NCBI GenBank assembly: GCA_963735035.1
Contig: CAVTJJ010000003.1
Location: 896,001-960,000, forward strand
Length of the DNA: 64,000 bases
Reading direction: 5' to 3'
DNA from: an uncultured candidate division Zixibacteria bacterium
Lineage (GTDB): Bacteria; Zixibacteria; MSB-5A5; GN15; FEB-12
The notes beneath the pieces were generated by a model. The model did not search any database. It was not told the origin of the DNA and saw only the letters and a program-made list of their open reading frames with translations. Positions within the stretch are counted from its first letter, which is position 1. Each line of letters begins with the position of its first letter. Both the position numbers and the translations under genes were made by a program. Below are positions 6,001 to 55,277 of this stretch, in pieces.

Positions 6001-8370
6001 ACCCAGAAATACCGAATTCTTGTCCTTCCAGAACACTCGCACCGGCAAGGAATTGAAAACCGAATGAAGAACCTCGCGCGATTCCCATAATTCTTCCTCT
6101 GCCAGTTTGCGACGGGTGATATCTACCAGTGTGCTCTGCATGCCGACAACCACGCCGTTCGAATCGGTGAGCGGTCGCGAGTTATTCAACACCGTAACGA
6201 CTTTGCCGTCTTTGCGTACCAGACGGTGTTCGTAATTGACGATGCGATCTCCGGACAGTAATTGCTGATGCGCGGGCAGAACAACTCCGGCGTCGGCATC
6301 TACGTCGGGAATGCTCATGCTCAGTAGCTGTTCTCTTGAATAACCCAGGAGTTCCAACCCCGCCTGATTGGAATCTATGAACTTCTTCTCTTTGTTGAAG
6401 ATGTAGATGGCGGCGATGGACTCATCGAATATGCCACGATATTTGTCTCCCTGCTCTCTGAGCCGTGACTCCATCTCTTTGCGCTCTGTGATGTCCTTAT
6501 CTACTCCGCGGTACCCTTTGAGATTTCCCTCGTCGTCCAATATTGGTACGCCGCTTGTTAGAAGACAAATTCTCCTGCCGTCCATGGCAATATTCCAGTT
6601 TTCCAGATCCCGTATGGGCGCCTTCCTTGCGACTATTTCGGCGAAAATCTGTGCGACTCTCTGAGCTTCGTCTTGAGGCATGAAGTCGAATGGTGTCTTT
6701 CCGATAATTTCTTCGCGGGATCGTCCGAGAATGTCAATGGACTGTTGAGAGCTATAAGTGTAGACGCCATTCTCGTCTACTTCCCACACCCAGTCGGCCA
6801 TACTGAACGTGATGTCTCTCAAGCGTTCTTCACTCTTCCGCAGCGCCTCTTCCGACTGTTTGCGCTCGGTTATGTCCCAGAGGACCCCGTTCATTCTCCT
6901 GGGTGAACCATCTTCGCTGTACAGAGTCATTCCTCTGCCGTTCATATAATGAATCGTGCCGTCGGGCCAGACACAGCGGTATTCAACATCGTACAGGGTT
7001 TTCCGCTCAATGGAGCTATAGAGCGCCGTCGTGATTCTTTCCCGATCATCCGGATGCACTACCCGGTAGAATTCTTCACTCGTACCCTTGAACTCGTGAG
7101 GATCGAGCCCCAGCAGAAGGCAAGTTTGGTCGTCAAAGCCGCGCTTGTTTCCTTCGAGATCAATATACCATACACCCATATTGGCAGACTTCAAGGCCAG
7201 GTCCAGGCGGGCCTGATTCTCCCGAAGCGCTTCCTCAACTCTCTTGCGCTTGGTGATATCCTTGAAGACGCAATGGGTCTGCTTGAACGAGCCGTCGTCG
7301 TCGTAACTGATTCGGCCGTCGAAAGCTACGATGATTTCCGTGCCGTCCTTCTTGATCATCTCGAATTCGATACCAAGAATCTGTCCCAGGCTCTTGAATT
7401 TCGGAAAGTTCTCTTTGAAGACCTTCCGGAAATCCGGGTGGAGGAACTCGCCGAAGTTTCGGCCCAGCACTTCTTCCTTGGTATATCCAAGCGCCTTGCA
7501 CCAAGCTTCGTTGACGGCTATGAAATTGCCGTTCTCATCGAGTGATTGATAACCCAGGGGGGCATTTTCGAAGAGCTGTCGGAAACGATCCTCGCTCGCG
7601 ATGAGCGCATCCTCGGCTAGTCGCCGCTTTTGTTCGCGGCCCCGAACGCTACGGGCGCCGATAACCAGGAAGGCAAGCCCTAACAGCCACAACACCCCAT
7701 GGCCGAGGCCGATCGCAGCCATATCTTCCTGCGCAATTGCCTCGAAACGGGACATCGGCATCGAAACACTGATTCCGCCGCGCACGTCCCCTTCTTTGTA
7801 GCCTTGCTTGGCATGGCATTTAAGACATTCTTGTTCCGTTACCAACGGTCGCATGAGCCGCAAGTACTCCTGGCCATCCAGTTTCTCGACCGTGGCGAAT
7901 TCCGTCTCACCCCGCTCGAACGACTCCAATGCTCTCTTCTCCCACGTGTCCGCTGCATTCTCAGGCCGAAGCGGCTTGAGGCTCGTGATGTGACCTCGCA
8001 CTCCGTCGACTAACAAGCCAAGCTCGTGTACTTGGCGCGTCATGTAGGACGGATTGACGAGCGTCAGGTGTAGCCCGGACGGTGTCTCGATGTCGCGCCC
8101 TGCTACATCAACCAGATATGGATTGGGTTGACAAGAATCGGATACGGGAACATAGACGCCCCCAAGACTGGCGTTCCAGCGGCGATAGAGAACATCCATT
8201 GCAATCTGGTCACGGGCCGCTTCACTGGCCGAAGAGATCTGAGTATCTTTTTCGCTGATGCAATTCCACGCCATGGAAGCGGCGACCATCAGCGTCCAAC
8301 CTACTGCCAGTATCACCGCATATCTTGCCACAGCCGAAGGCTGATTGCGGTCTTTGGAGATTTTGTTCAT
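3034..8370 (-). CDS. Hybrid sensor histidine kinase: periplasmic DUF3365-like heme c domain, about 9 PAS domains, HisKA, HATPase, receiver
   Basis: Two TM segments flank a CLKCH motif. Repeated DITERK..EEALRESE linkers, H-box VAHDFNN, FDPFFTTK/GSGLGL and a C-terminal REC (LLDMIMP). Confidence 0.95.
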   Translation of the reverse strand: MNKISKDRNQPSAVARYAVILAVGWTLMVAASMAWNCISEKDTQISSASEAARDQIAMDVLYRRWNASLGGVYVPVSDSCQPNPYLVDVAGRDIETPSGLHLTLVNPSYMTRQVHELGLLVDGVRGHITSLKPLRPENAADTWEKRALESFERGETEFATVEKLDGQEYLRLMRPLVTEQECLKCHAKQGYKEGDVRGGISVSMPMSRFEAIAQEDMAAIGLGHGVLWLLGLAFLVIGARSVRGREQKRRLAEDALIASEDRFRQLFENAPLGYQSLDENGNFIAVNEAWCKALGYTKEEVLGRNFGEFLHPDFRKVFKENFPKFKSLGQILGIEFEMIKKDGTEIIVAFDGRISYDDDGSFKQTHCVFKDITKRKRVEEALRENQARLDLALKSANMGVWYIDLEGNKRGFDDQTCLLLGLDPHEFKGTSEEFYRVVHPDDRERITTALYSSIERKTLYDVEYRCVWPDGTIHYMNGRGMTLYSEDGSPRRMNGVLWDITERKQSEEALRKSEERLRDITFSMADWVWEVDENGVYTYSSQQSIDILGRSREEIIGKTPFDFMPQDEAQRVAQIFAEIVARKAPIRDLENWNIAMDGRRICLLTSGVPILDDEGNLKGYRGVDKDITERKEMESRLREQGDKYRGIFDESIAAIYIFNKEKKFIDSNQAGLELLGYSREQLLSMSIPDVDADAGVVLPAHQQLLSGDRIVNYEHRLVRKDGKVVTVLNNSRPLTDSNGVVVGMQSTLVDITRRKLAEEELWESREVLHSVFNSLPVRVFWKDKNSVFLGCNTSFARDAGFEKPEDIIGRDDSDMGWREQADLYQADDRAVIESGEARLLFEEPQTTPSGEQLHLLTSKLPLRDAGGAIVGVLGSYLDITDRIRAEQKVKLRESYLTSIIENQPGLMWLKDADGRFQAVNKAFALACGLEHPKKLVGLTDLDIWPRELAYKYRRDDSEVMEARASKIVEEIVQDQGRPKWFETFKTPVVNEQGNVIGTTGYSRDITERKRAEEALRESEARLFELASQVPGAVYQFYARPNGEHGFYYISDKSEQIVGLKPELDGFFERFTALVHPAYRESFLTSIGKAISECTDWNFEGILQKPTGETIWFSAQSRHLRRESEVIFNGIVFDITERKRSAEALRESEATHAEAQRIAHLGHWRLDLTANWLDWSAEVFRIFDIDPQEFAASYEAFLNTIHPEDRTLVNQAYTDSLKSREPYDIVHRLLMKDGTVKFVHERCETQYDEAGNPMFSLGTVLDITERKHAEEALRESENRYHKLFNSTLEGLGVVDKNEVIEYCNQAYADIFEAGTQEDLIGRSLLDFVPQQLQNKVLAQTELRKQGLNSQYEIDIVTARNNRKTVLASISPRFDEQGNYCGASGAIIDISETKRLQELESRALRLETAGQIAGQVAHDFNNMLAPMMAYPELIREQLPVGDPSRKYLEAIEESAKRIADLNQQLLTLSRRGHYNQEVLNLNDIIQQVLRDMASPPSTLVIESDLCPKLMNIEGGIAQLHRVVMNLVMNARDAVRDIGRVSVRTENSFIDDTTVMYGRIPRGEYIKLTVIDSGCGIPDEIMQKIFDPFFTTKSTDKKRGSGLGLSVVDAVVKDHNGFIDLTTTVGVGTSFYLYFPVTRAAVSERPSDEIPRGTESILVVDDDEIQCEVSSRLLSTLGYEVTVCDSGKKAVELLAHSTFDLLLLDMIMPSDICGTETYRRALQIRPDQKAIIVSGFSESGRVTEAQKLGAGAFVKKPLSRRTLALAVRKELDRKVEVPSCS

Positions 8371-8777
8371 ATCAACAGATTGGCCTTCTCAGGGCTCCTC
8401 AGATTTGGAGCCATTAAGCGTACTAGTTCAGCATTGTCACTGGTTCGCAATCGAACATATTCGATCTTCGTTGTTTTCTTCGATCGCAAACGAAGACAGC
8501 CATGCACCAGGCAAGGAACTACCGTTCCAGTTCTAGTCGGCAGATTGTGCAAAAATGTTACAGGTGGAGGCTGTGACCTGAGGGGCAGAAAGGCCCAACA
8601 TAAAGGTATGCAAAGAGTTAACGCCAGCCCCCGATCATGCCCGGATGATAGCAAAACCTGACAGCTCTGATCCGATGAAGACCTATATAATGTAGGGCTA
8701 TTTGAAAGACCGCGGGACGGGTGAACCTAAGGGTCCAAACAATACTATGTAGAGAGCCTTCTTACTGCAAATCACCA

Positions 8778-9560
8778 CTATTTGAAGTGAAGTGAGATAG
8801 TCGTGTTGAGGCCGTTCTTGGAGGGCTCCAGGGACATGGTTACTCGCTCAGTCTGATTACGCCGGCTTACTACCTCATAGGCAATAAGATTACCCAGAGC
8901 CGCCCCGGCGACTACATCGCTGATATAGTGCTTGTTCTCCTGTAGTCGCGAGAGACCGACATAGGCCGCCCCGCTCTCGGCTATGATCCCCGGAATGACT
9001 CCGTATCGGTCGGCGATCACTCCGGCAGTCGTGAAGGCCATGGTAGCGTGGCCGGACGGGAACGAATAGGGGGCGCCGTCCGGGCGGGTTCTCTGAGTTG
9101 CCAATTTAAGGCCGGTCGAGATGGTTCCGGCGATTACCAATCCGCTGGTGAGGTCCGACCCCAGCGCAGCCAGACCCCGTCTATGAAACACCTTCCCCGC
9201 CATGTACAGCGACAGAGCACCCGCAAGGTGGACACCTCCATTTCCAAGGAAATTGCCGTATTCGAAGATCCGGTCGGCACCGGCATTGCCGACCCAGCTG
9301 CGATAAGGCCGATTCGTTTCATTGAAACTCCACGCATGTGTCATCGCCAATAGCATAACGGCGTCGATCGTAAAAGTATGAGTACCGACATACGAACAGT
9401 TCTTAAGGAGATCGGCCAGCAGGTGCGGGTTTGCATGCTCGTCAGGTCCTGTCGACGCCTGCGCGTTTCCTCCCGTAAACATTATCAAGATTACCGCAAC
9501 AAGGCAGCAAGTGACCAGTATGACGATTATGTCTGATCGATTGGTTCTTCTGTTATTCAA
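8778..9560 (-). CDS. PAP2-family phosphatase
   Basis: K..TQRTRP, SFPSGH and SRLQENKHYISDV motifs. The TTG start is uncertain. Confidence 0.85.
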   Translation of the reverse strand: MNNRRTNRSDIIVILVTCCLVAVILIMFTGGNAQASTGPDEHANPHLLADLLKNCSYVGTHTFTIDAVMLLAMTHAWSFNETNRPYRSWVGNAGADRIFEYGNFLGNGGVHLAGALSLYMAGKVFHRRGLAALGSDLTSGLVIAGTISTGLKLATQRTRPDGAPYSFPSGHATMAFTTAGVIADRYGVIPGIIAESGAAYVGLSRLQENKHYISDVVAGAALGNLIAYEVVSRRNQTERVTMSLEPSKNGLNTTISLHFK

Positions 9561-9885
9561 AATGGCCTTTCAATTGGTCGTATTCTCCGGCCTCGATCTA
9601 CCGGCGACTCCCCCGATGACAGCGTTGTGACAGTCCCCTCGCTGTGCCGTGGCCTTCACGACGGCTGTCGAAATCATATGAGGTACGAATGCGCTGCACA
9701 ACATTACGCCCTTAACTCCTATCTGAAACACTATGATCATGTCGGATTGTTCCGTGGCGTTTGCTGACAAGATGCCGACAAAATCGACCCTCCGGCCCTA
9801 TCTCGCTGCCGCCACAGAAACTATTTGCTACCCTGGCGATACAACTACTGTATAATGCTGTAATCATGGCAAGGACTGCCCGCTG

Positions 9886-12579
9886 ATGTCACGATCTTGG
9901 AGTCATTCGTACCTAATTGCTACGACCGCCGGTCTGGCGTTGCTTCTATTCCTGCCGGCACGAGCCGTGGAACCACCGGTGGTTCGCTATGATATTCAGG
10001 TCACTTTGGATGTACCTGGCAACACCTTGAACGGCCGCGAGACCATTCGCTATGTCAGCGGCGCCGACAGCAATCTAAGCGAGCTATACCTGCACGCCTA
10101 CCCCAACGCTTTCTCCGGCCGGGGAAGTACGCTCGCTCAGGAGATGGAGAGTATCTACCATGACTATTCCATCGCTCAGGCCCGGGCGGAGGAACTCGGT
10201 CGTATGGACATCGATTCAATCACGATCGATGGAGCTAATGCTTCTTACGAGATAGATGATACGTCAGTCAAGGTCAGACTTCCGCGACCGCTGGCTTCGC
10301 ATGATTCCCTGCTACTGGAGATCAACTTTGTCACGAAGATTCCTCTCATGTCTGGTCGGTTTCGCGCCCAGGATGGCAACTTCTCCATTGCTCAATGGTA
10401 CCCCAAGATTGCGGTGTACGACAGTACGGGCTGGCATCACGACTCGTATCACTTGACCGGTGAGTTCTACGGCGAGTTCGCGACCTACGATGTCGCCATC
10501 ACTCTTCCGGCCCAGTACTACATCGGCGCGACGGGTGAATATGTCGCGGGAGAAGGCGGCGACAACAACATGCCGACGCTTTCGGCCAATCGTGTCGGCG
10601 GTGAGGTTATACAGAAGGACTCCAGGCAGATCGCAAGTAGCAATCTGCCGTCAATGAAAACGCTTCACTTTCATGCTGAAGAAGTCCATGACTTCGCCTG
10701 GGTGGCATCCCCCGATTATCTCATAGACGAAACCGAATGGCGCGGGATAAGAGTCAAGGCGCTGGTACTTGCCCGCCACGCCCAGTCTCAATGGCGCAAT
10801 CTGCTCTCGTACGAAATTGCAGCCCTCAAGTTCTTTACCGGCAAAGTTGGAGAGTATCCCTATCCGACCCTGACAGTCGCCGAAGCCTATAATTATCCTA
10901 CCGGCGCCATGGAATATCCTTCGCTCGTCATGATGGATCCGGCGGCAGGTGTGCCGTTGACCCACGCCCTTGAATATGTCACCGTGCATGAGGTCGGCCA
11001 CAACTGGTTCTACGGGGCCTTAGCCAATAACGAACTGGACCAACCCTGGCTGGACGAAGGTTTCGAAGAGTATTTCACGCTCTGCTATGCGGAGCAAACC
11101 TACAAAAACGGCACCATCTTCGATATTCCCCGATCGGCTTCCCTGTTCCTGAATCTCCCCTATCGATGGACTCATGAGATCGATTACCGCTTGTTGCCGC
11201 CCACAATCCGGTCGAAACCGGTGAGCCTGCCGGCGTATCAGTTTGCCGATGAGCAGGAATACCGCGCTATCGCATACTCGAAGGGGGCGCTTTTTCTGGA
11301 ACGGTTACACAATTTCGTGGGTGACTCGACATTCAACCAGATCATGAGGTCTTACTACTCTGAGTACAAGTTCAAGCATGTAACTATTGCGGATTTCTGC
11401 AGTGTCGCCGACAGTGTCAGCGACCTGGACCTTAGTGTCTTGTCGGAGCCCTCGCTGTGTAGTTCTAATTCCCCCAGAAGTACCATTCAATCGGACACGA
11501 CTCAAGACTTCGATGCTAAGTCTATAAAGTTCGTGCGACCTCTCCAGCCGTTCGCATTCGCCGACCCCAATCATTATGTGGTTGGCCTCAATCCCAGCCT
11601 CTGGTACAACAAGGTCGATAAGATGCGAGTCGGCGTGCATCTGCAGAGTGGTTACCTGATGACCCGTGACTTGTTCTCGGCGAAAGTTATTTATGGAACC
11701 GCCTCCGGAAAGACCGGCTACCATGTCAGCTACTCAACTTACCTGCGAGATGCGCCGGATGTCAGAGTCACACTCAAAGACAGCTATGACGAAGGGGCGC
11801 GCAATTATTCTGTCGATATCGGTAACTCGCGGCCACGCAATCTCTTTTTGTCGGTACGGCCGTCGGTAGCGCCCGAGTTTCCGTCAGTTCATAACACATT
11901 GTCTTTGGCTTATAGTGATCAATTCGACCCCGCCTATTTCGATCCCAAGTACTATACGTTCGGCAAGACCATGATCCTGAGCCTTCATGGGAGCTACACG
12001 CAACGTGGCTACGAAGGTATTACCAGCGTCCACTACTTGTTCGCTCAGGGATTAGAGGCGCACGGGGCTGGGCCTGCTTTCAAGAAAGGCTATTTGAGTC
12101 TCGGACAGGATCTTCGGTTGTTGCGAACCGGGGAATTGGTGATGACAATTCGCGGTGCGGCCGGTGTCATGTCGGAAGGTGCTCCGAAACAGGAGCAGTT
12201 CGCGGTCGGATATGGGGTACCGAGGTCAACCGTAGATCCGATCGGCCAGTATGTTGCGAGTGGCGGCGGTGGAGTGCGAGGTTACCAGAATGATGCGGTT
12301 CTGGGACACCGGTTGTTTGCCGCCAATCTGGAATTAAGCTCCGAACGACTGTACCTGGGGCTGCCGCTATTGGATCCGAGGCTGTTTTTCGATATCGGCC
12401 GGGTCAATAACCCTGAAACGTCGCGGCTGGCGAACAGGACTCTGTGCGACGCTGGGATCGAATTCCGAGCTCTCGACGTGCTGAGATTGAGTTTTCCCCT
12501 ATGGCTGAGCGATCCCTCTGACGACCACAGGCAATTTGATTTTCGAGTGGTGGCACGCATTGTGCCTCCCGGACATTGA
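9886..12579 (+). CDS. Secreted M1-family zinc aminopeptidase with C-terminal beta-strand-rich domain
   Basis: Signal peptide; GAMEYP; HEVGHNWF...WLDEG; YSKG. Confidence 0.9.
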   Translation: MSRSWSHSYLIATTAGLALLLFLPARAVEPPVVRYDIQVTLDVPGNTLNGRETIRYVSGADSNLSELYLHAYPNAFSGRGSTLAQEMESIYHDYSIAQARAEELGRMDIDSITIDGANASYEIDDTSVKVRLPRPLASHDSLLLEINFVTKIPLMSGRFRAQDGNFSIAQWYPKIAVYDSTGWHHDSYHLTGEFYGEFATYDVAITLPAQYYIGATGEYVAGEGGDNNMPTLSANRVGGEVIQKDSRQIASSNLPSMKTLHFHAEEVHDFAWVASPDYLIDETEWRGIRVKALVLARHAQSQWRNLLSYEIAALKFFTGKVGEYPYPTLTVAEAYNYPTGAMEYPSLVMMDPAAGVPLTHALEYVTVHEVGHNWFYGALANNELDQPWLDEGFEEYFTLCYAEQTYKNGTIFDIPRSASLFLNLPYRWTHEIDYRLLPPTIRSKPVSLPAYQFADEQEYRAIAYSKGALFLERLHNFVGDSTFNQIMRSYYSEYKFKHVTIADFCSVADSVSDLDLSVLSEPSLCSSNSPRSTIQSDTTQDFDAKSIKFVRPLQPFAFADPNHYVVGLNPSLWYNKVDKMRVGVHLQSGYLMTRDLFSAKVIYGTASGKTGYHVSYSTYLRDAPDVRVTLKDSYDEGARNYSVDIGNSRPRNLFLSVRPSVAPEFPSVHNTLSLAYSDQFDPAYFDPKYYTFGKTMILSLHGSYTQRGYEGITSVHYLFAQGLEAHGAGPAFKKGYLSLGQDLRLLRTGELVMTIRGAAGVMSEGAPKQEQFAVGYGVPRSTVDPIGQYVASGGGGVRGYQNDAVLGHRLFAANLELSSERLYLGLPLLDPRLFFDIGRVNNPETSRLANRTLCDAGIEFRALDVLRLSFPLWLSDPSDDHRQFDFRVVARIVPPGH

Positions 12580-37835: not shown

Positions 37836-39929
37836 CTACTTCAGCAGCAACATCTTCTTCATCTGAACTACTTCGCCCGCGCTGAGACGGTATAGGTATA
37901 CGCCAGTCGAAACTGAGCTACCTTTATCGTCAGTGCCGTTCCACTCTGTCTGATACGAGCCTGCCGACATAGTCTCGTTTACCAACGTCCTCACCTTCTG
38001 GCCAATCACATTGAAGACTTCGATCGTAACCTTCGTCTGTGATGGCAGACTATATTCGATCGTGGTCGTCGGATTGAACGGATTCGGGTAATTCTGTCCC
38101 AGTACGTAGAGGGAAGGAAGGACCTGATTCGGCTCACTGACATCAAGTGTGTTCGCCAGAGCCCGGACAGCATTGATTCTGCCGCCACTTACCACCTTGC
38201 CCTGCAATTGTGTCAGGCCGTCGACTGAGTTGAATATACTCCTTCGCAAATCTGCAAACGTCGTGTTCAGGTTCTGCGAAAGAATCAGACCCGCCAGCCC
38301 GGCCACGTGAGGCGACGCCATCGAGGTACCATCTATGTATTCGTAGCTCCATTCACTCCCGCTGCCCCCACCGTTCGCGGTGATTATTACATCATCAATG
38401 TACGCTCCATCGAAACAAGTTGACGCGTCAGTGCTCAACCTGAAGCGCAGATAGACCTGCGCATAACCTTCCAGGACGGAAAGGGGGACCCGCACTGATA
38501 CGAATTGTCCGCTTGTCGTGCCTGTGCGCCCATCGATGATGCTCCACGAATACCCATCGACACAGGCGTCGACAAAAAGCCAGTCATACTGGGATTCCGT
38601 ATCGAGCCTGAGCTGAAAATCAAGGACGGGTTGACTACCAGGTGCGAAGCTGAGAGGCTTTACCAGCATCAAGCATGATTCCTGATTGTTCTGGTACGTC
38701 CCTCCCGGGCTGTCTGTTGCGCTGTGGGTGGGGCTCACGCAGGCCTCTTGAGTGAGTTGCCAGTATCCATTTGTCCACCAATTAGACCCGTCCTCCATAT
38801 TGTCCTGGAACAGGACGTTTCCGGTACTCGACGCCGGAACGGTACTGAATATTTTCACCCCCGGTGCAGCAACGTCAACGCCGATCGCCCCGTAGTTTGA
38901 AAACGAAGCCAGTCGATCATTCTTATCCGTCGCTGCCACGGTTATGACATTTTCAAGGTCAAAACTCCCCGGTGTATATGGTGTCACGTCAATGTTGACC
39001 CCATCATTTCCGGCGGCACACACGAACAGAACCCCCTTGTCACGAGCATACTTCACAGCGTCGTAGACCATCTGATCGTATCCCGGCCCGCCCCAACTGG
39101 CATTAATGATTCTGGCGCCATTGTCTACAGCGTATTTGACGGCCTTTATCAGATCGGCAGTCAAGCCGCCGTTTTCCCCCAACGCTCGAACCGCCATGAT
39201 CTTCGCTTTCCAGCAAACACCCGCTACACCTATTCCGTTGTTGCCCACCGCGGCTATGGTGCCCGCGACATGTGTGCCATGTTTGCCGGCCGCCGGGTCG
39301 TTGTCGTTTTGAACGAAATCCCAGCCATAATAGTCGTCAACGAAGCCGTTATTGTCGTCATCGACACCATTGATCGGATCATCGGCATTGACCCACATAT
39401 TCGCGGCCAGGTCTTCATGACCCCGGTAAACACCGTCATCCACAACCGCAATGACCACTTCCTCGGAACCGATAGTTACATCCCACGCCGACAGCGCTCT
39501 GATATCGGCGTTCTGCGTCCCTCGGTCGCCGCCGACCGACTGCCCTGAATTGCTCATTCCCCAAAGACTGTCAAAGTGAGCGTCGTTGGGGCGGCTGAAG
39601 TTGTGATAGATGAAGTTGTACTGTACGTACTCTACTCCGCTCTTCTGTTCCAGAGAGTTCTTCGCCTCGTCGAGTGATGAGCCATCCGGGATCCGGAGTA
39701 TGACCGCATTCATATCCGGAATTTCCTCTTTGATCGACGCGTTCAGGTCCGCCGCCATGGCGCCGCCCTGAACCATGGCGCCTCTACCCGTAAACTTGAC
39801 AATTAGCTCATTCGGGACATACTGCAACTGAGTGATCGGTCGCAATTCACCCTTCGCAGTGTCAGGACGAACTGATGCGCTCCACAGGAGGGTGAAGCTT
39901 ACGGTAACTGCAATAACATCCCTCAACAT
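37836..39929 (-). CDS. Secreted S8 (subtilisin-like) serine peptidase with inserted beta-sandwich and C-terminal FlgD-Ig/sorting-like domain
   Basis: VVDDG, HGTHVAG, AAGN, GTSMASPHVAG; QNYPNPFNP...KKMLLLK. Confidence 0.95.
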   Translation of the reverse strand: MLRDVIAVTVSFTLLWSASVRPDTAKGELRPITQLQYVPNELIVKFTGRGAMVQGGAMAADLNASIKEEIPDMNAVILRIPDGSSLDEAKNSLEQKSGVEYVQYNFIYHNFSRPNDAHFDSLWGMSNSGQSVGGDRGTQNADIRALSAWDVTIGSEEVVIAVVDDGVYRGHEDLAANMWVNADDPINGVDDDNNGFVDDYYGWDFVQNDNDPAAGKHGTHVAGTIAAVGNNGIGVAGVCWKAKIMAVRALGENGGLTADLIKAVKYAVDNGARIINASWGGPGYDQMVYDAVKYARDKGVLFVCAAGNDGVNIDVTPYTPGSFDLENVITVAATDKNDRLASFSNYGAIGVDVAAPGVKIFSTVPASSTGNVLFQDNMEDGSNWWTNGYWQLTQEACVSPTHSATDSPGGTYQNNQESCLMLVKPLSFAPGSQPVLDFQLRLDTESQYDWLFVDACVDGYSWSIIDGRTGTTSGQFVSVRVPLSVLEGYAQVYLRFRLSTDASTCFDGAYIDDVIITANGGGSGSEWSYEYIDGTSMASPHVAGLAGLILSQNLNTTFADLRRSIFNSVDGLTQLQGKVVSGGRINAVRALANTLDVSEPNQVLPSLYVLGQNYPNPFNPTTTIEYSLPSQTKVTIEVFNVIGQKVRTLVNETMSAGSYQTEWNGTDDKGSSVSTGVYLYRLSAGEVVQMKKMLLLK

Positions 39930-43697: not shown

Positions 43698-44388
43698 ATG
43701 AAACAGTTAGACTTATTAGTCGTGAGCGTCGCCGCAGTCTTGTTGCTTCTTCTTGCCTGGAGCCTGGCCACAGGTGAGAGTCAGATTGAACGCGACAGAC
43801 AGCCGAGCGAAATAGCCGAAGCTCGCTTACTGCCGGCACATGATACGTCCACAAGTTCAGATCGGAACGGAGCCGTAAGCTCCAGTGTGAATTCAGAGAT
43901 CAGCCACCCACCTGCTTCCCTTCTCACCGTCGGGCCAAAACCTCGCGGAGTCGCGAGTGCGTCCGACATCTCCATTGATTGGTGGGTGGTGGCCGCGGGA
44001 GCGGTCGACGGCAGAGGACAATCCCTTCATCTACTCGCAACAATCGGTCAGGGTGTGATTGGAGAAGGTGCGTCAAGCAAGTATCTGTTGCGTTACGGAT
44101 ACTGGGCTGCGTCGAACGGCGCTGGTGGTTGTTGCCAGGGTCGGGTGGGCGATGTCAACCAGTCAGGTAACGACGAGCCTACTATCGGCGACATTTCTAC
44201 TTTGATCGACGCCAAGTTCATAACCGGGTCGTGCGACGGGGTGATTTCGTGTTTTGCCGAAGCTGATATCAATCAGTCCGGCGGTCCTAACCCGACCTGT
44301 AATGACATCACGATTGGCGACATTTCTATCCTGATCGACTACTCTGTTCATTACGGGGCCTTCGCTTGGGCTTCATAACTGCCTGTAG
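43698..44388 (+). CDS. Secreted protein with Cys-flanked dockerin-like (paired EF-hand) domain; frameshift near the 3' end
   Basis: CCQGRVGDVNQSGNDEPTIGDISTLID...EADINQSGG...ITIGDISILIDY; the alternate frame ends LFITGPSLGLHNCL*. Confidence 0.75.
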
Positions 44389-44476
44389 ATATTGCGGCTG
44401 ATTCAAAGGCTAGTCCCAGAATTCTGATTGTTGTTGCACGACAGCTCGGCTTGCTTAAATTACCTGCTATATCAGG

Positions 44477-47666: not shown

Positions 47667-48758
47667 TCATTGTGCCGCCGCCACGGCTTCCAACAGTTGA
47701 GTGATTACCGGCGTCTCGAACGGCTCAAGGCCCTGTTCCTTTTCTATCAGGTAGGTACACAGCGGCTTTACATCGCCATTGGCATGATACCGATGAGGAG
47801 CCATAGGCACACCGCTTCGGCATAGTAGCAGATACCGACATTCACGGCACCATCGATTCACTGAATCACGATGCATCTTGCGGTTATACGCAAAGGCATC
47901 AGGGTTATTCCAGATATCGGCGATGGGGGTAACGCGGATATTCCCTTCGATGAATTCATCAGTCATCTCTGCGGCACCTTTCACTTCACCGGATGGTCCA
48001 ACCGCCAGGTAGTGTACTCCGGATCCATCGCCCAAAAACGGGCGGCCCCCGCGCAGTTTCATTCCCTTAGTTCCATAGTGGCCTATCTCATCGGTCGCGC
48101 TAATTGTGATGCGAGTATCGCTCTGCATTTCAATGATCTTATCAATCATCGTGGTGTATTCTTCCCTGGTCAGGACCATGTCTGCATGGGAGGCCATGCG
48201 GCCGGTTGGCTGAATCATTTGAATGCGCCAGTCTGCACACCCGGCATCGATTAGCGCACTTTTGATAGCCTCAAGCCGATCGAGGTTCATTCTGGAAACA
48301 GCCGTAACTGCCGCAACCTTCAGACCGGGCACAGAACTGGCGAGCTTGATTGCCGCCATCGCCCGATCATACGCATCTGGACAACAGCGGATCATATTGT
48401 GTGTCTCGCGGTCTCCATCGACACTGATGCCTAGTGAGTTAACTCCAGCGTCGACAAGTGACTGGAGTCGAGACGGTGACAGCAAGAGACCATTGGTTAT
48501 CAAACCTATACGCGCCTCTTTGCTTGATATATACTTGATAACCTCAATAAGGTCCGGACGTATCAATGGTTCACCGCCGGTCAAACAGAACTGGCGACAA
48601 CCGAGGTCAAGAAGATCGTCGATCATCATCTTGGCCTCCGCCGTGGTCAGTTCATCTGATCTGGGCTTGGCGGACGCATTGCCGCAATGCTTGCATCGTA
48701 AGTTGCAGCCGCGTGTAACTTCCCACACTGCAACAGTTAGCTTGAAATCTGAGTTCAT
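47667..48758 (-). CDS. Radical SAM/SPASM-domain protein, probable peptide maturase
   Basis: WEVTRGCNLRCKHC, TGGEP, ISVDG, EGNIR, CRECRYLLLC; GAAAGGA RBS before the ATG at 48758. Confidence 0.9.
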   Translation of the reverse strand: MNSDFKLTVAVWEVTRGCNLRCKHCGNASAKPRSDELTTAEAKMMIDDLLDLGCRQFCLTGGEPLIRPDLIEVIKYISSKEARIGLITNGLLLSPSRLQSLVDAGVNSLGISVDGDRETHNMIRCCPDAYDRAMAAIKLASSVPGLKVAAVTAVSRMNLDRLEAIKSALIDAGCADWRIQMIQPTGRMASHADMVLTREEYTTMIDKIIEMQSDTRITISATDEIGHYGTKGMKLRGGRPFLGDGSGVHYLAVGPSGEVKGAAEMTDEFIEGNIRVTPIADIWNNPDAFAYNRKMHRDSVNRWCRECRYLLLCRSGVPMAPHRYHANGDVKPLCTYLIEKEQGLEPFETPVITQLLEAVAAAQ

Positions 48759-48780
48759 TGTCTTCCTTTCGAGTGAGAAT

Positions 48781-48803
48781 AGGGGGCAGAGGATCTGCCC
48801 CCT
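48781..48803 (-). terminator. Perfect 10-bp hairpin between the peptide and rSAM genes
   Basis: AGGGGGCAGA-GGA-TCTGCCCCCT. Confidence 0.7.
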
Positions 48804-48810
48804 CGGCAGA

Positions 48811-48900
48811 CTAGAGTATGATCCAAGGTCTCGGTATGAGGATGTGCAGAATATTGAGACCCGCATTGATGATAGTGGTTGAGGTAATGATCGGGATCAT
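48811..48900 (-). CDS. 29-aa Ile-rich peptide, candidate RiPP precursor (MIPIITSTTIINAGLNILHILIPRPWIIL)
   Basis: AAGGAG 7 nt before the ATG; TAG at 48811-48813; lies between a promoter motif and the rSAM gene; too short for the ORF track. Confidence 0.75.
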   Translation of the reverse strand: MIPIITSTTIINAGLNILHILIPRPWIIL

Positions 48901-48958
48901 GGCGTTGCTCCTTGTTTGAGTTGTTGGTTATGTTGGTTTTCGTTTTCATTTGTCCATT

Positions 48959-48985
48959 AGTGCCACCTACCCTCCGGTTGTTACA
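48959..48985 (-). promoter_or_regulatory. ECF-type promoter motif copy 5 (peptide-rSAM)
   Basis: TGTAAC-AACCGGAGGGTAGGT-GGCACT. Confidence 0.75.
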
Positions 48986-49166
48986 GACTTCCTGCTCACC
49001 TTCTAATTATGCGTAACTTATTGTGTATCAACAGAAACCGCCCACGAGAGGGATAAGCGCCTTCGGGTGCTCTGGCTTACCGCCAGTATCAAGGTTATCG
49101 ATGGCCAGCCCGACCAGCCGCGTTTGTTACAGCCTTTCACATAGGATTCCCCCGGAAACGAAGAGA

Positions 49167-49190
49167 GGTCGCCCCCGAATGGGGGCGACC
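49167..49190 (-). terminator. Terminator-like hairpin after the FN3 gene
   Basis: GGTCGCCCCC-N4-GGGGGCGACC followed on the minus strand by TCTCTTCGTTT. Confidence 0.65.
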
Positions 49191-49228
49191 CGTTGATGAA
49201 GTCTATCGATTCTTTATGTAGAACCGCA

Positions 49229-51480: not shown

Positions 51481-53172
51481 ATGTCCACTAATGATCTTCT
51501 CCAGGTTCTGGTCTACATCATAGCGCTGGTCACCGTGGCTCCCCTGTTAGGCGCTTTCCTGGCACGGGTCTTTACAGACCGGCCACACCCGCTCAAGCTT
51601 GCCCTCGGGTGGTTAGAGAAGGGTATCTACAAGTTTGGTCGCATAGATAGTAACAGCGAGATGAATTGGAAAGATTACGCCAGGTCACTGCTATGGCTCA
51701 ACGGTCTTGGATTTGTCTTTCTTTTTGTTCTGCAGATTTGTCAGCAGTGGCTTCCACTTAATCCACAGCACTTGCCAAATGTCGGATGGCCGCTGGCATT
51801 CAACACCGCTGTCAGTTTCGTTACCAACACGAATTGGCAATCCTATGCCGGAGAGACTACGCTCAGTTATCTGACCCAAATGATCGGTCTGACCGTGCAG
51901 AATTTTGTCAGTGCCGCCACGGGAATTGCTGTGTTTCTCGCCCTGACACGTGGAATTATTCGGAAGACAACTGACAAGATCGGAAACTTCTGGGTCGATG
52001 TAACGCGCTCGATTGTCTATGTCCTGCTGCCGCTTTCTTTGCTTCTTGGGATCGTGTTAGTCGGCGAGGGCGTGGTGCAGACTTTCTCGCCTGCTGCCAC
52101 CGTGACCACCGTAGAAGGTCCGGCGCAGACTATTCCGCTTGGTCCGGCCGCATCCCAGATTGCCATAAAGCAGTTAGGTACCAATGGCGGCGGCTTCTTC
52201 AATGCCAACAGCGCTCATCCACTGGAGAATCCCACGCCAATATCAAATTTCCTTCAGATGCTGGCCATTTTGCTCATCCCGGCAGCTCTAACTTTCACTT
52301 ATGGCAGGCTAGTGGGCAATCGCAAGCACGGGTGGGTCATTTTCGCCACCATGTTTGTGCTTTGGTTTGCCGGATTGTCACTCTCACTCTACGGTGAGTA
52401 TTCTGCCAACCCGGCCCTGGGATTGCAGACTAATATGGAAGGAAAAGAAGTTCGGTTTGGCATCACGAACAGCATCATTTGGTCTTCTGCCACCACTGCC
52501 GCCTCGAACGGCTCCGTCAACGCTATGCACTCGAGTCTCACACCTTTGGCGGGCGGCGTAGCTCTTTTCAATATCATGTTGGGTGAGATCATATTCGGCG
52601 GAGTCGGCGCCGGCATGTACGGCTTCTTGCTGTACGTTCTTATGACCGTCTTTCTTGCCGGATTGATGGTAGGTCGCACGCCGGAGTATCTGGGCAAGAA
52701 AGTCGAGGCACATGAGATTCAGATGACCATTGTGGGGATTCTGGCTCCTAACACCGTCATCCTCATTGGCGCTGGGCTTGCCTGCGTCCTGCCGATCGCG
52801 CTGGCAGGTCTGGCCAACCAGGGACCGCACGGTCTAAGCGAGATACTGTACGCCTTCTCCTCAGCGGCCGGCAACAATGGCAGTGCCTTTGCCGGACTGA
52901 ACGCTAATACCAATTTCTATAACATCACCCTGGGCGTGGCGATGCTCATAGGCCGTTTTGCAATCATCCTGCCCTGCCTGGCAATCGCAGGTCACTTGGC
53001 CGGCAAGAAACGGTCACCTCTGTCGGCCGGCACGTTTGCGACCGATAACACAACCTTCGCCGTGCTCCTAATTGGCGTGATTCTAATCGTCGGCGCGCTT
53101 ACTTTTCTTCCTGCGCTGGGATTGGGTCCGATAGTCGAACACTTGTTAATGCTGTCCGGACGAACCTTCTGA
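51481..53172 (+). CDS. kdpA: K+-transporting ATPase subunit A
   Basis: [31 protein letters not shown]. Confidence 0.97.
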
Positions 53173-53180
53173 GGGAACCT

Positions 53181-55277
53181 ATGGCTGAATCGGTTTCAGG
53201 ACTCTTCAACAGAGCTTTGCTGGGGTTTGCGATCCGGGCGTCCCTCAAGAAGCTAAATCCGCGTGACCAGGTTCGAAATCCGGTCATGTTTGTGGCCTAC
53301 GTTGGTGCCATCCTCACCTCCATATCGTTCGCTGCCGGCTGGATTCAGGGATCATGGTCCGGATTTGAATTCCAGATTAGTCTCTGGCTTTGGTTCACCG
53401 TCCTATTTGCCAATTTCGCGGAATCGATGGCTGAGGGACGTGGCAAAGCCCAGGCCGACAGCCTGAAACGAGCGCGCAGCGAGACGTTCGCTCGTCTTCT
53501 CAAGTCAGGTCGGGAAGAACGCACCGCGGCCACTCTGCTGCAAAGAGGAGACGAGGTCGTCTGCGAGGCAGGAGATATCATACCGTCAGATGGCGAAGTG
53601 ATCGAGGGAATCGCCAGCGTCGATGAATCGGCCATCACCGGCGAATCAGCCCCGGTCATACGTGAAAGCGGTGGCGACCGGAGCGCTGTAACCGGCGGAA
53701 CGCGAGTAATCAGCGATCGGATCGTCATTCTAATCACTTCCGAGCCCGGCAATACCTTTGTCGATCGTATGATCGAACTGATCGAAGGAGCAAAACGCCA
53801 CAAGACCCCGAACGAAATCGCACTCGGCATTGTCCTGGCCGGACTGACTATTGTCTTCTTGCTGGCCGTCGCGACGCTGAAATTCTTTGCCGATTACAGC
53901 GGCACGTCCGCGGGACAGGATCTAAGCAAGATAGTAACCGTTACCGTGCTAGTGTCTCTGCTTGTTTGCCTCATTCCTACCACAATTGGCGCACTTCTGA
54001 GTGCTATTGGGATAGCCGGCATTGACCGGCTTGTCCAGCGAAACGTAATCGCCAAGAGCGGTCGCGCGGTTGAGGCCGCGGGTGATATCGACGTACTCTT
54101 GCTCGATAAGACCGGGACGATCACTTTGGGCAATCGAATGGCTACCGATTTCGCACCAGCAGAAATGATACCGGTGCAGAACCTGGCGGAAACGGCTCAA
54201 TTGGCGTCGTTGGCTGATGAGACTCCGGAAGGTCGTTCTATCGTCATTCTGGCTAAGGATCGCTACGGGTTTCGTGCGCAGACTCTCACGCCGAGCCAGG
54301 CGCGGTTCGTGCCCTTTACCGCACAGACTCGTATTAGTGGTGTCGACATACTCGAACCCGACGGTTCGATCGCAATGAGCATCCGCAAAGGAGCGGTTGA
54401 TTCCATGCGCGAGCATCTGCTGCGGCATGGTGGCAGTTTTCCCGATGAATTAGAATCGATTCAAAGCGAGATCGCGCGTTCCGGCGGAACACCACTGGCC
54501 GTCAGCATCGACAATCAGGCGATTGGAATTGTGCAACTCAAGGATGTGGTCAAGGGCGGTATCAAGGAACGGTTCGCCCAACTGCGCAGGATGGGCATTC
54601 GCACGGTTATGGTGACAGGGGATAATCCGCTCACCGCGGCGGCCATAGCGGCCGAGGCGGGGGTCGATGATTTTATCGCGCAGGCGACACCAGAAGCCAA
54701 ATTGGAGCGAATTCGAGAGGAACAGCGCGCCGGTCATCTGGTTGCCATGACGGGCGACGGCACCAATGACGCTCCAGCCCTTGCCCAGGCCGACGTCGGC
54801 GTTGCAATGAATACAGGTACTCAGGCGGCACGCGAAGCAGGCAACATGGTGGATCTCGACAGTAATCCGACGAAACTGATTCAGATTGTGGAAATCGGGA
54901 AACAGCTGCTAATGACCCGCGGCTCACTGACTACCTTTAGTATCGCCAACGATGTGGCCAAGTATTTTGCGATCCTTCCGGCAATGTTCGGAACGCTCTA
55001 TGCGATGTCCGGCTCAAGTACCGGTCCGTTGGCCGCCATGAATATCATGCATCTTCACTCGCCGGAGAGCGCCATACTCAGCGCAGTAATCTTCAACGCG
55101 CTGATAATTGTCGCCTTGATTCCCCTGTCACTGCGTGGCGTGACCTATCGACCGGAAAGCGCCGAGAGACTCTTGCGTCGCAATCTGCTGCTCTACGGCC
55201 TCGGAGGTATTGTTTCGCCGTTCATAGGTATTAAGCTAATTGACCTTCTGCTGGTGGCCGGCCGACTCGCAAACTAA
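53181..55277 (+). CDS. kdpB: K+-transporting ATPase subunit B
   Basis: TGES, CLIPTTI, DKTGT, GDGTND. Confidence 0.97.

What the first reader, a model, noticed from the sequence alone, without database searches (positions are those of the whole stretch)
47667..48985. Unannotated 29-aa Ile-rich peptide plus radical SAM enzyme: candidate new RiPP pathway
Seen on the minus strand, in order: promoter motif, AAGGAG RBS, MIPIITSTTIINAGLNILHILIPRPWIIL* (10 Ile, 4 Leu, one His, one Trp, no Cys or Tyr), a perfect 10-bp hairpin, an RBS, then the rSAM/SPASM gene. Known: precursor-hairpin-maturase is a common RiPP layout that gives precursor excess. rSAM maturases epimerise Ile/Val (EpeE, PoyD) or cross-link Trp/His to aliphatic residues (triceptides). 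Inference: no Cys excludes sactipeptide or ranthipeptide chemistry and no YG motif argues against splicease chemistry. Epimerisation, or a cross-link at H-I-L or W-I-I, is more plausible. No RRE/PqqD domain or dedicated exporter is visible; the co-regulated S8 or the CHAT protease could remove a leader.
Basis: partly seen in the sequence, partly recalled or inferred. Interest (0 to 1): 0.85.

Follow-up and report, generated by a model that had tools for sequence, protein, structure and literature searches.

The report
Orphan radical-SAM enzyme with upstream mini-ORF
A Zixibacteria genome carries a lone, remodelled copy of a peptide-modifying radical SAM enzyme, and a tiny 29-codon gene just upstream may encode its substrate, though that link is unproven.

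Summary
The sequence features are real. A 29-codon ORF (48811-48900, minus) has an AAGGAG site 7 nt before its ATG. A perfect 10-bp hairpin follows, then a 363-aa radical SAM/SPASM gene (47667-48758). The promoter scan found no match.

The enzyme is an orphan. Its best relatives are only 43-44% identical. They are the second rSAM of a conserved Zixibacteria operon: MIYLIDP..Cys..PLYG precursors, a 450-aa rSAM, a 370-aa rSAM, usually a B12-rSAM, and an ABC exporter. The window copy has none of these partners. It has lost the three SPASM cysteines assigned to auxiliary cluster I and keeps the four of cluster II.

A close variant in two DNA runs shows strong purifying selection on the enzyme (pN/pS 0.064). 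The ORF stays intact there, and the ORF-hairpin-RBS stretch is almost unchanged.

Three results favour translation of the ORF: the RBS, gene-like codon usage, and a fold that ties its stop codon to the enzyme's RBS. The peptide has no detectable similarity to the family's precursors. No orthologue or RNA data exist to test it.

Verdict: a plausible minimal precursor-maturase pair (about 0.4). A coupling or leader ORF and a non-coding leader remain live rivals.

The parts
47667..48758 (-). Radical SAM/SPASM gene (P0001, 363 aa). CX3CX2C at C18/C22/C25. SPASM cluster-II Cys kept (C304, C307, C313, C334). Cluster-I positions changed (D244, A262, V317; T230).
   Evidence: Start fixed by alignment to homologues. 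pN/pS 0.064 against a close variant. AF2 model pLDDT 84.2. Fold closest to SkfB, CteB, PqqE, anSME and SuiB.
48762..48769 (-). Ribosome-binding site AAAGGAAG of the rSAM gene.
   Evidence: In the fold, two G of this site pair with CC just after the small ORF's stop, and AGAC before the AUG pairs with GUCU at that stop.
48760..48811 (-). Composite RNA structure from the last base of the small ORF's stop codon to 2 nt before the rSAM AUG.
   Evidence: 71-nt fold, -24.7 kcal/mol, z -3.16, 1 of 200 shuffles as stable. 0 differences in 48759-48810 in the variant.
48781..48803 (-). Perfect 10-bp G+C-rich hairpin with a 3-nt loop and no T-run after it.
   Evidence: The same 23-mer occurs once in metagenome contigs, as an unrelated T-tailed terminator.
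48811..48900 (-). 29-codon ORF (P0002), MIPIITSTTIINAGLNILHILIPRPWIIL; end coordinate includes the stop.
   Evidence: Codon-usage score +9.1 bits. Intact in the variant, with I4 synonymous and I22V. No paralogue in the own genome. No Pfam or NCBIfam hit. No score against the precursor HMM.
48908..48913 (-). AAGGAG ribosome-binding site, 7 nt before the ATG of the small ORF.
   Evidence: Genome-wide, 139 of 204 AAGGAG-N5-9-ATG sites precede ORFs of at least 100 aa, against 30-40% for six permuted hexamers.
48755..48949 (-). 64-codon frame overlapping the small ORF in another frame. It shows a faint, collinear resemblance to the family's SPASM region (NI..S..E..DPD...CRGG...YS.S) and may be a decayed remnant of a tandem copy.
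   Evidence: blastx E 0.03 against 638 context proteins. Family HMM 2.4 bits, reached by 2 of 1000 shuffles. Pairwise tests not significant. Not listed in the genome-wide HMM search. Codon score -6.5. By my own count of codon positions from the differences (no script run), most variant changes in this frame fall at first or second codon positions.
48975..48990 (.). First copy of a 16-nt direct repeat (minus strand AAGTCTGTAACAACCG).
   Evidence: family D2, 88% identity, spacing 146 nt. Function unknown. Its core is kept in the variant's loose end.
49121..49136 (.). Second copy of the 16-nt direct repeat (minus strand AAGGCTGTAACAAACG).
49006..49031 (-). The spacer is too short for the sigma-70 consensus.
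   Evidence: read by eye. Not reported by the promoter scan.
49166..49191 (-). Terminator-like hairpin (11 pairs, 9 G-C, T-rich tail) after the upstream fn3 gene. It marks the 5' border of the unit.

Best explanation
The unit is a minimal, self-contained precursor-maturase pair.

The enzyme is a functional, fast-evolved offshoot of the second rSAM of the Zixibacteria MIYLIDP/PLYG RiPP operon. It has given up SPASM auxiliary cluster I and keeps the radical SAM cluster and cluster II.

The 29-codon ORF is translated from its own strong RBS. A ribosome terminating at its UAG opens the structure that holds the enzyme's RBS, so the enzyme is made in step with the peptide and in smaller amount. The enzyme then modifies the hydrophobic, Cys-free peptide.

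Shown:
- The sequence features are present.
- The enzyme belongs to this family, and its cluster-I cysteine positions are changed.
- The enzyme is under purifying selection.
- The leader region is conserved.
- The ORF has gene-like codon usage.

Inferred:
- The ORF is translated.
- Translation of the ORF is coupled to that of the enzyme.
- The peptide is the enzyme's substrate.

The chemistry is unknown. Without Cys it cannot be a thioether link, and without Tyr-Gly it cannot be tyramine splicing. A reaction that needs no cluster I, such as epimerisation or a C-C cross-link at H-I-L or W-I-I, is a guess.
For: Enzyme family:
- Relatives of 38-44% identity sit in operons with short precursors. 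53 of 98 loci showed the 450-aa plus 370-aa rSAM pair, and 62 distinct MIYLIDP..PLYG peptides were collected.
- The own genome holds such an operon on contig C2, with 3 precursors found by the held-out HMM at E 1e-8 to 7e-6 among 100,861 segments.
- The precursors of this family are themselves short (31-48 aa) and nearly leaderless, so a 29-aa precursor fits the family's style.

Enzyme is functional:
- Against the variant in runs X1/X2 there are 29 synonymous and 6 non-synonymous differences, 28 of 35 at third codon positions (P 2e-8), pN/pS 0.064. A262 and V317 are kept.
- The AF2 model is confident, pLDDT 84.2.

ORF is likely translated:
- AAGGAG lies 7 nt before the ATG in a genome where this motif marks gene starts.
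- Codon score is +9.1 bits, at the 60th percentile of in-frame gene windows. Only 0.4% of out-of-frame windows reach it.
- Its 0.315 bits per codon would rank 9th among 479 intergenic ORFs of 25-40 codons.
- The ORF is intact in the variant, with one synonymous and one Ile-to-Val change.
- The stretch 48759-48900 has 2 differences in 142 nt against pS 0.18, P 3e-10; P 0.0012 at an assumed local rate of 0.075, slightly below the 0.085 measured for the adjacent rSAM segment.

Coupling:
- The fold (z -3.16) pairs bases at the ORF's stop with the enzyme's RBS.
Against: - The peptide is conserved only in one near-identical variant. The enzyme has no orthologue, so the comparative test is impossible.
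- The peptide scores nothing against the precursor HMM of the enzyme's own family. It is not among the 1891 of 100,861 segments with E up to 1000.
- It has no paralogue in the genome.
- An ORF with an RBS arises in 1.6% of shuffles of this one intergenic region.
- The stretch is G-poor and open in all three frames, and G-poor sequence by itself yields Ile, Thr, Pro, Leu, Asn and His.
- The region may be a decayed remnant of a gene copy read in another frame.
- Conservation of the stretch could equally reflect an RNA-level role.
- There is no RRE, protease or exporter in the unit.
- No RNA run holds the locus, so expression is untested.
- Only two changes fall in the ORF, too few for a coding test.
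Confidence: 0.4

Rival explanations
1. The ORF is translated but serves only as a coupling or leader ORF. Its translation and termination open the RBS of the rSAM gene and set the enzyme's level. The enzyme's real substrate lies elsewhere, for example the three MIYLIDP/PLYG-type precursors on contig C2, acted on in trans, or an unknown protein.
For: The structure links the ORF's stop to the enzyme's RBS, with z -3.16 and 0 differences in 52 nt. The RBS and codon usage point to translation. The peptide resembles no known precursor family. The own genome does encode canonical precursors.
Against: The canonical operon has its own copy of this enzyme type, P0075. The window enzyme has a remodelled SPASM region and a long branch, which suggests a changed task. 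Gene-like codon usage and an Ile-to-Val plus synonymous change pattern are not needed for a mere coupling ORF, although there are only two changes.
Confidence: 0.3
2. The ORF is not translated. The stretch 48759-48972 is a conserved 5' leader RNA, possibly exapted from the decayed 3' part of a former tandem rSAM copy. Its hairpin stabilises or tunes the rSAM transcript, and the ORF is a by-product of G-poor sequence.
For: All three frames are open and G is 13%. The AAGGAG lies inside the faint SPASM-like frame (codons K-E). The family HMM score of the intergenic region is reached by 2 of 1000 shuffles. Conservation extends 5' of the ORF, with 3 differences in 72 nt. Chance ORFs of this kind are expected about once per window.
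Against: Codon usage is gene-like in the ORF's frame only. The RBS spacing is optimal and the motif predicts gene starts in this genome. No Rfam family matches. The remnant signal is weak: pairwise tests gave 214, 136, 36 and 68 of 1000 shuffles, and nothing appeared at E up to 10 in the genome-wide HMM search.
Confidence: 0.22
3. The ORF encodes an independent small membrane peptide (mean hydropathy about 1.4 by my own count), such as a small membrane protein or a type I toxin. It is unrelated to the enzyme's chemistry.
For: The peptide is very hydrophobic and 29 aa long, with a possible helix at I4-I22 (hydropathy computed by hand).
Against: It lies on the same strand, 52 nt from the rSAM start, and shares a structure with the rSAM's RBS. 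It has no paralogues. Its Thr, Ser, Asn, His and three Pro make a poor membrane helix.
Confidence: 0.05
4. The ORF is an Ile-codon leader peptide of a transcription attenuator, like the ilv leaders.
For: 10 of 29 codons are Ile, and a hairpin follows the stop.
Against: There is no T-run after the hairpin. The terminator scan reports nothing there. The downstream gene is not an amino-acid biosynthesis gene. The Ile codons are scattered rather than in a run.
Confidence: 0.03

Closest known systems
Second rSAM/SPASM enzyme (about 370 aa) of the Zixibacteria operon with MIYLIDP..Cys..PLYG precursors. No paper held all three terms 'Zixibacteria', 'RiPP' and 'radical SAM'.
   Same: 38-44% identity over the full length, the same length, and no RRE extension. 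The window protein sits in a 24-row set with 97% support in the tree. The radical SAM motif and the four cluster-II Cys are the same.
   Different: The window copy has no 450-aa rSAM directly upstream, and no B12-rSAM, ABC exporter or MIYLIDP-type precursor nearby. The cluster-I Cys are replaced. It has a very long branch, 2.15 against a median of 0.46. Extra copies in four other genomes were paired with a 450-aa rSAM in every locus long enough to show it.
Spliceases of spliceotide RiPPs (PlpX, RhaX, RasX; rSAM enzymes that excise tyramine at XYG).
   Same: The best NCBIfam matches of the canonical family are TIGR04103 and TIGR03913 (229 bits each for P0075; 170 and 179 for the window protein). 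By recall only, TIGR04103 is the PlpX family. The canonical precursors carry a near-invariant [LMC]YG near the C-terminus, like the LYG and MYG target sites quoted in passages of PMC11626197 and PMC11414181.
   Different: All scores are far below the curated cut-offs of 725 and 592. The 29-aa peptide has no Tyr-Gly at all. No splicease sequence was available for direct comparison.
Structurally solved SPASM and twitch peptide maturases (SkfB 6efn, CteB 5why, PqqE 6c8v, anSME 4k39, SuiB 5v1q).
   Same: The same fold by Foldseek, E 9e-18 to 2e-13, TM 0.65-0.70. The radical SAM core aligns by sequence.
   Different: Full SPASM enzymes bind two auxiliary clusters through a seven-Cys motif. Twitch enzymes lack CX2CX5CX3C and keep one cluster (passages of PMC5715301 and PMC10452713). 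The window protein does the reverse: it keeps CX2CX5C plus the last Cys, and lacks the first two Cys and the fourth Cys of CX2CX5CX3C.
   Same: By recall only, they act on Ile- and Val-rich hydrophobic peptides, and YydG carries a single auxiliary cluster. The reaction is redox-neutral and so would not need an electron-accepting cluster I.
   Different: No sequence or family test was made here. The nearest relatives of the window enzyme are not epimerases. No epimerase family appeared among the 25 best NCBIfam matches shown, out of 83.

Membership tests
Radical SAM superfamily | CX3CX2C cluster motif and a match to PF04055 above the gathering score | tested here: met
   C18-X3-C22-X2-C25. PF04055 95.7 bits against a cut-off of 29.5. 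GGEPL kept.
SPASM subfamily (two auxiliary clusters) | PF13186 match above the cut-off | tested here: met
   27.8 bits against 21.5, residues 250-307.
SPASM subfamily (two auxiliary clusters) | Seven-Cys motif CX9-15GX4C...CX2CX5CX3C...C (passage of PMC5715301) | tested here: not met
   Only 4 of 7 Cys are present. Positions 244, 262 and 317 are D, A and V, where 117-118 of 120 family members have Cys.
Twitch subfamily | Lacks CX2CX5CX3C and keeps the cluster-I type site | tested here: not met
   CX2CX5C and the last Cys are kept, and the cluster-I ligands are lost.
Zixibacteria MIYLIDP/PLYG operon, second rSAM | Groups with the family in a tree | tested here: met
   Inside a 24-row set with SH-aLRT 97, as sister of P0069 with support 95. 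Both are long branches, so the exact place is unsure.
Zixibacteria MIYLIDP/PLYG operon, second rSAM | A 450-aa rSAM directly upstream, an ABC exporter downstream, and MIYLIDP-type precursors nearby | tested here: not met
   Upstream there is only the 29-codon ORF and then a terminator. Downstream is a convergent CHAT-TPR gene. No precursor-HMM hit lies in or near the window; the only hits with E below 1 genome-wide are the three on contig C2.
Spliceotide splicease with XYG precursor | XYG site in the substrate | tested here: not met
   P0002 has no Tyr.
Spliceotide splicease with XYG precursor | Curated family score (TIGR04103 or TIGR03913) | tested here: not met
   169.5 against 725, and 178.7 against 591.75.
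Sactipeptide or ranthipeptide pair | Cys in the precursor as thioether donor | tested here: not met
   P0002 has no Cys.
RiPP precursor-maturase pair (general) | A short ORF next to the maturase on the same strand, with its own RBS | tested here: met
RiPP precursor-maturase pair (general) | The peptide gene is conserved next to orthologous maturases | tested here: inconclusive
   No orthologue exists in the collections searched. One near-identical variant keeps the ORF. The contigs of the sister proteins P0069 and P0126 could not be fetched.
RiPP precursor-maturase pair (general) | The peptide is modified by the enzyme | not testable with these tools
   This needs co-expression and mass spectrometry. 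The complex predictor asks for chains of 30 residues or more and the peptide has 29, so no job was sent.
Leader-peptide transcription attenuator | Terminator hairpin with a U-run, and a regulated biosynthetic operon downstream | tested here: not met
   The tail is ATTCTCACTC. The scan reports no terminator at this place. The downstream gene is an rSAM.

The most novel reading that the evidence does not exclude
The pair is a new, minimal kind of RiPP system. A SPASM enzyme has discarded auxiliary cluster I, the reverse of a twitch domain. It evolved from a splicease-like maturase and now modifies a leaderless, Cys-free, Ile-rich 29-mer without an RRE. The chemistry is not yet described for this clade, for example epimerisation to a membrane-active D/L peptide or a C-C link at H-I-L or W-I-I. 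The Asp-Asp-Asp proteins P0069 and P0126 would be further members of the same cluster-I-less lineage.
Probability: 0.3. Interest if true: 0.75.

Novelty: new variant of a known kind. Interest (0 to 1): 0.45.

Why it matters
If the pair is real, it would be one of the smallest RiPP systems: one enzyme and one 29-aa peptide, with no leader-binding domain. It would show a peptide maturase changing its substrate and cofactor set after leaving its operon.

The enzyme is also of interest alone. A SPASM domain that keeps cluster II and loses cluster I, yet stays under strong purifying selection, is a natural test of what each auxiliary cluster is for.

The work also exposed a three-rSAM operon with MIYLIDP..PLYG precursors in 82 of 285 Zixibacteria genomes. 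No paper in the held library combined the terms I searched for it.

Tried and rejected
- Is P0002 a diverged member of the MIYLIDP/PLYG precursor family? I noticed M-I-x-[IL]-I at the start and [KR]-P-aromatic near the end. An HMM of 62 precursors gave it no score, while it recovered the three held-out own-genome precursors. Rejected as unsupported.
- Orthologues of the enzyme were sought in 5.8 billion proteins, genome contigs, 60 relatives including two of the same genus, 285 genomes of the phylum with P0069 and 1.84 billion representatives. None was above 44% identity for P0001 or 48% for P0069.
- Synteny with the same-genus genomes failed. DNA matched only a repeated 260-nt segment. The CHAT-TPR and fn3 proteins gave no match. 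That empty answer shows nothing by itself.
- An exact search for the hairpin in metagenome contigs gave one unrelated terminator.
- No RNA holder was listed for the locus, so nothing can be said on expression.
- Rfam gave no match at E up to 1.
- The 399-aa reading of the rSAM from the ATG at 48866 was rejected. Homologues align from MNSDFK, and the extension frame has a codon score of -16.0.
- The tandem-copy remnant idea stays unresolved: the HMM shuffle test was positive, the pairwise tests and the genome-wide HMM search were negative.
- Paper PMC4326806 is not held.
- No complex prediction was sent, because the peptide is below the tool's stated 30-residue length.
Full report
**What is in the sequence.**
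- On the minus strand, an ORF at 48811-48900 encodes MIPIITSTTIINAGLNILHILIPRPWIIL.
- AAGGAG lies 7 nt before its ATG.
- Its UAG is followed by a perfect 10-bp hairpin (48781-48803) and by AAAGGAAG.
- The ATG at 48758 then opens a 363-aa protein, P0001. P0001 has Pfam Radical_SAM (95.7 bits), Fer4_12 and SPASM (27.8 bits) domains.
- A longer 399-aa reading from 48866 is wrong. Homologues align from MNSDFK, and the extension frame has a codon score of -16.0.
- Upstream, a terminator-like hairpin (49166-49191) closes the preceding gene. That gene encodes a 244-aa protein with one Pfam fn3 match. Its N-terminus reads like a lipoprotein signal, which is my own reading.
- Downstream lies a convergent CHAT-TPR gene. 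The transcription unit is therefore the small ORF plus the rSAM gene.
- The sigma-70 scan found no promoter. TTGATA and CATAAT are present, but their spacer is 14 nt.

**What the enzyme is.**
- None of the NCBIfam models shown (the best 25 of 83) reaches its cut-off. The best are TIGR04133 at 193 of 425, TIGR03913 at 179 of 592 and TIGR04103 at 170 of 725.
- In 5.8 billion proteins the best non-self hit is 43-44% identical. Named hits are Zixibacteria.
- Genome contigs gave 518 relatives, the best at 43%.
- Among 60 related genomes, 17 have a hit at E up to 1e-40, none above 44%. One same-genus genome (100% complete) has only a 41% hit. The other (77% complete) has none.
- The own genome holds a second copy on contig C2 at 40% identity.
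- The window gene is therefore an orphan lineage, not the species' only copy.

**The family's normal setting.**
- I called ORFs in 98 fetched loci and clustered them. 53 loci show a 420-510-aa rSAM directly followed by the 340-400-aa family member, usually then a 477-aa protein and a 590-aa ABC transporter.
- The 450-aa protein is nearest to the Clo7bot and Cys-rich RiPP maturase models, below their cut-offs. The 477-aa protein has B12-binding and Radical_SAM domains.
- Upstream of the first rSAM lie one to four short ORFs of one clear family: M[IV]YLIDP, a Cys-rich middle, then P[LMC]YG[VI]P. I collected 62 distinct sequences.
- An HMM built without the own genome finds three such genes on contig C2 at E 1e-8, 5e-7 and 7e-6 among 100,861 six-frame segments.
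- Spliceases act at XYG sites, including LYG and MYG (passages of PMC11414181 and PMC11626197). The canonical 370-aa enzyme may therefore be a splicease. That is inference, and the link of TIGR04103 to PlpX is recalled, not tested.
- Extra copies in four other genomes were part of a full pair with precursors in every locus long enough to show it. Among everything examined, the window copy is the only unpartnered one.

**The remodelled SPASM domain.**
- In an alignment of 120 family proteins, three SPASM cysteines (P0075 numbering 244, 262 and 317) are Cys in 117-118 sequences. The window protein has D, A and V. It keeps C304, C307, C313 and C334.
- The seven-Cys motif, and the assignment of its first two Cys and the last Cys of CX2CX5CX3C to cluster I, come from passages of PMC5715301. 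Twitch domains lack CX2CX5CX3C and keep one cluster.
- The window protein is the reverse case. I know of no described example, but I did not search the literature for this point specifically.
- One other protein, P0069, has D, D, D at these sites. A profile search of 1.84 billion representatives added the fragment P0126, also D, D, D.
- P0001 and P0069 join as sisters next to the canonical clade, with support 97 in FastTree and 95 in IQ-TREE with a site-heterogeneous model. Both are long branches, so the join may be an artefact.
- The AF2 model is confident (pLDDT 84.2) except at 318-328, beside the lost site. It matches SkfB, CteB, PqqE, anSME and SuiB.

**Selection.**
- Two DNA runs of one study, labelled peat metagenome, hold short contigs 92-98% like the locus. 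The two runs are not independent.
- Using the 40 differences that the tool lists, the rSAM shows 29 synonymous and 6 non-synonymous changes, 28 of 35 at third positions (P 2e-8), with pS 0.18, pN 0.012 and a ratio of 0.064. A262 and V317 are kept. Differences near contig ends are not listed, so the counts are lower bounds.
- The enzyme, in its cluster-I-less form, is therefore functional.
- The small ORF is intact in the variant, with I4 synonymous and I22V.
- The stretch 48759-48900 has 2 differences in 142 nt, P 3e-10 at the overall pS; P 0.0012 at an assumed local rate of 0.075, slightly below the 0.085 measured for the adjacent rSAM segment. The 52 nt holding the hairpin and RBS have none.
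- This shows constraint on the stretch. It does not show whether the constraint acts on the protein or on the RNA.

**Is the ORF translated?**

In favour:
- AAGGAG-N5-9-ATG occurs 204 times in the genome, and 139 of these precede ORFs of at least 100 aa. Six permuted hexamers gave 30-40%.
- The ORF's frame scores +9.1 bits on the genome's codon usage, typical of real genes (mean 7.6, sd 5.1). The other two frames score -16.0 and -6.5.
- Its 0.315 bits per codon would rank 9th among 479 intergenic ATG-ORFs of 25-40 codons. The ORF itself was masked out of that set by overlapping long frames.

Against:
- 1.6% of shuffles of this single region give such an ORF.
- The stretch is G-poor and open in all three frames.
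- No RNA run was found.

My estimate is about 0.7 that it is translated.

**Coupling.** The 71 nt around the stop fold at -24.7 kcal/mol, with z -3.16 and 1 of 200 shuffles as stable. GUCU, starting with the G of the UAG, pairs with AGAC just before the rSAM AUG. CC pairs with GG of the rSAM RBS, and the 10-bp hairpin is nested inside. A terminating ribosome would open this structure. That fits translational coupling better than a terminator, because no T-run follows.

**Is the peptide the substrate?**
- It has no Pfam or NCBIfam match, no paralogue in the genome and no score against the family's precursor HMM.
- Its lack of Cys and Tyr-Gly excludes the chemistries suggested for the canonical operon.
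- The case therefore rests on position and on the family's habit of short, nearly leaderless precursors (31-48 aa). A diverged enzyme beside a novel peptide is also coherent.
- I put the pair at 0.4, a translated coupling ORF with another substrate at 0.3, a non-coding leader at 0.22, and minor readings at 0.08.

**A possible remnant.**
- In the frame of a 64-codon ORF (48755-48949) the intergenic region shows a faint collinear likeness to the family's SPASM region. blastx gave E 0.03. The family HMM gave 2.4 bits, reached by 2 of 1000 shuffles.
- Pairwise tests are not significant. The genome-wide HMM search does not list the region. The frame has non-coding codon usage.
- If the remnant is real, the small ORF arose out of frame in the remains of a tandem copy. 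I leave this open.

**Surroundings.** The GC content is ordinary, 0.49-0.58 against 0.555 for the genome. The CHAT-TPR and fn3 proteins have no match in the two same-genus genomes, so the neighbourhood may be variable. No protease or exporter can be tied to the unit.

Noticed in passing
Own genome contig C2, locus L112 about 6711-11904; also 53 fetched loci such as L007 1978-8278: A conserved operon with one to four precursor genes (M[IV]YLIDP, Cys-rich core, P[LMC]YG[VI]P; 31-48 aa), a 450-aa rSAM/SPASM, a 370-aa rSAM/SPASM, often a B12-binding rSAM, and an ABC exporter. The 370-aa type was found in 82 of 285 genomes of the phylum. The invariant YG hints at tyramine splicing. No paper held all three terms 'Zixibacteria', 'RiPP' and 'radical SAM'.
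   Followed up: partly
Proteins P0069 (367 aa) and P0126 (234-aa fragment): Two relatives carry Asp at all three SPASM cluster-I Cys positions and keep the cluster-II Cys. They may form a cluster-I-less sister lineage together with the window enzyme. Their contigs could not be fetched.
   Followed up: partly
window 44125-44390: A roughly 260-nt segment at the 3' end of the ORF 43617-44378 matches 61 places in the two same-genus genomes at 66-78% identity. It looks like a widely shared C-terminal domain, perhaps a secretion sorting tail as in the S8 peptidase at 37836-39929.
   Followed up: no
window 48975-48990 and 49121-49136: A 16-nt direct repeat (minus strand AAG[T/G]CTGTAACAA[C/A]CG), 146 nt apart, lies upstream of the small ORF. 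It could be a regulator or promoter element. Its core is kept in the variant contig.
   Followed up: no
window 48755-48949 (-): A 64-codon frame with a faint SPASM-like pattern ends in an ATGA overlap with the rSAM start. It may be a decayed tandem copy.
   Followed up: partly
Own genome contig C4 560025-562411: A second pair of adjacent rSAM frames (452 and 353 aa) matches the family HMM at E 2.5e-17 and 1.2e-62. It is probably another RiPP-type cluster.
   Followed up: no
L113 1077-1099: The exact 23-nt hairpin of the window occurs in an unrelated metagenome contig, followed by a T-run, as an ordinary terminator.
   Followed up: yes
window 51481-55277: kdpA and kdpB (potassium-transporting ATPase) lie on the plus strand and pass their curated cut-offs. 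This is ordinary.
   Followed up: no
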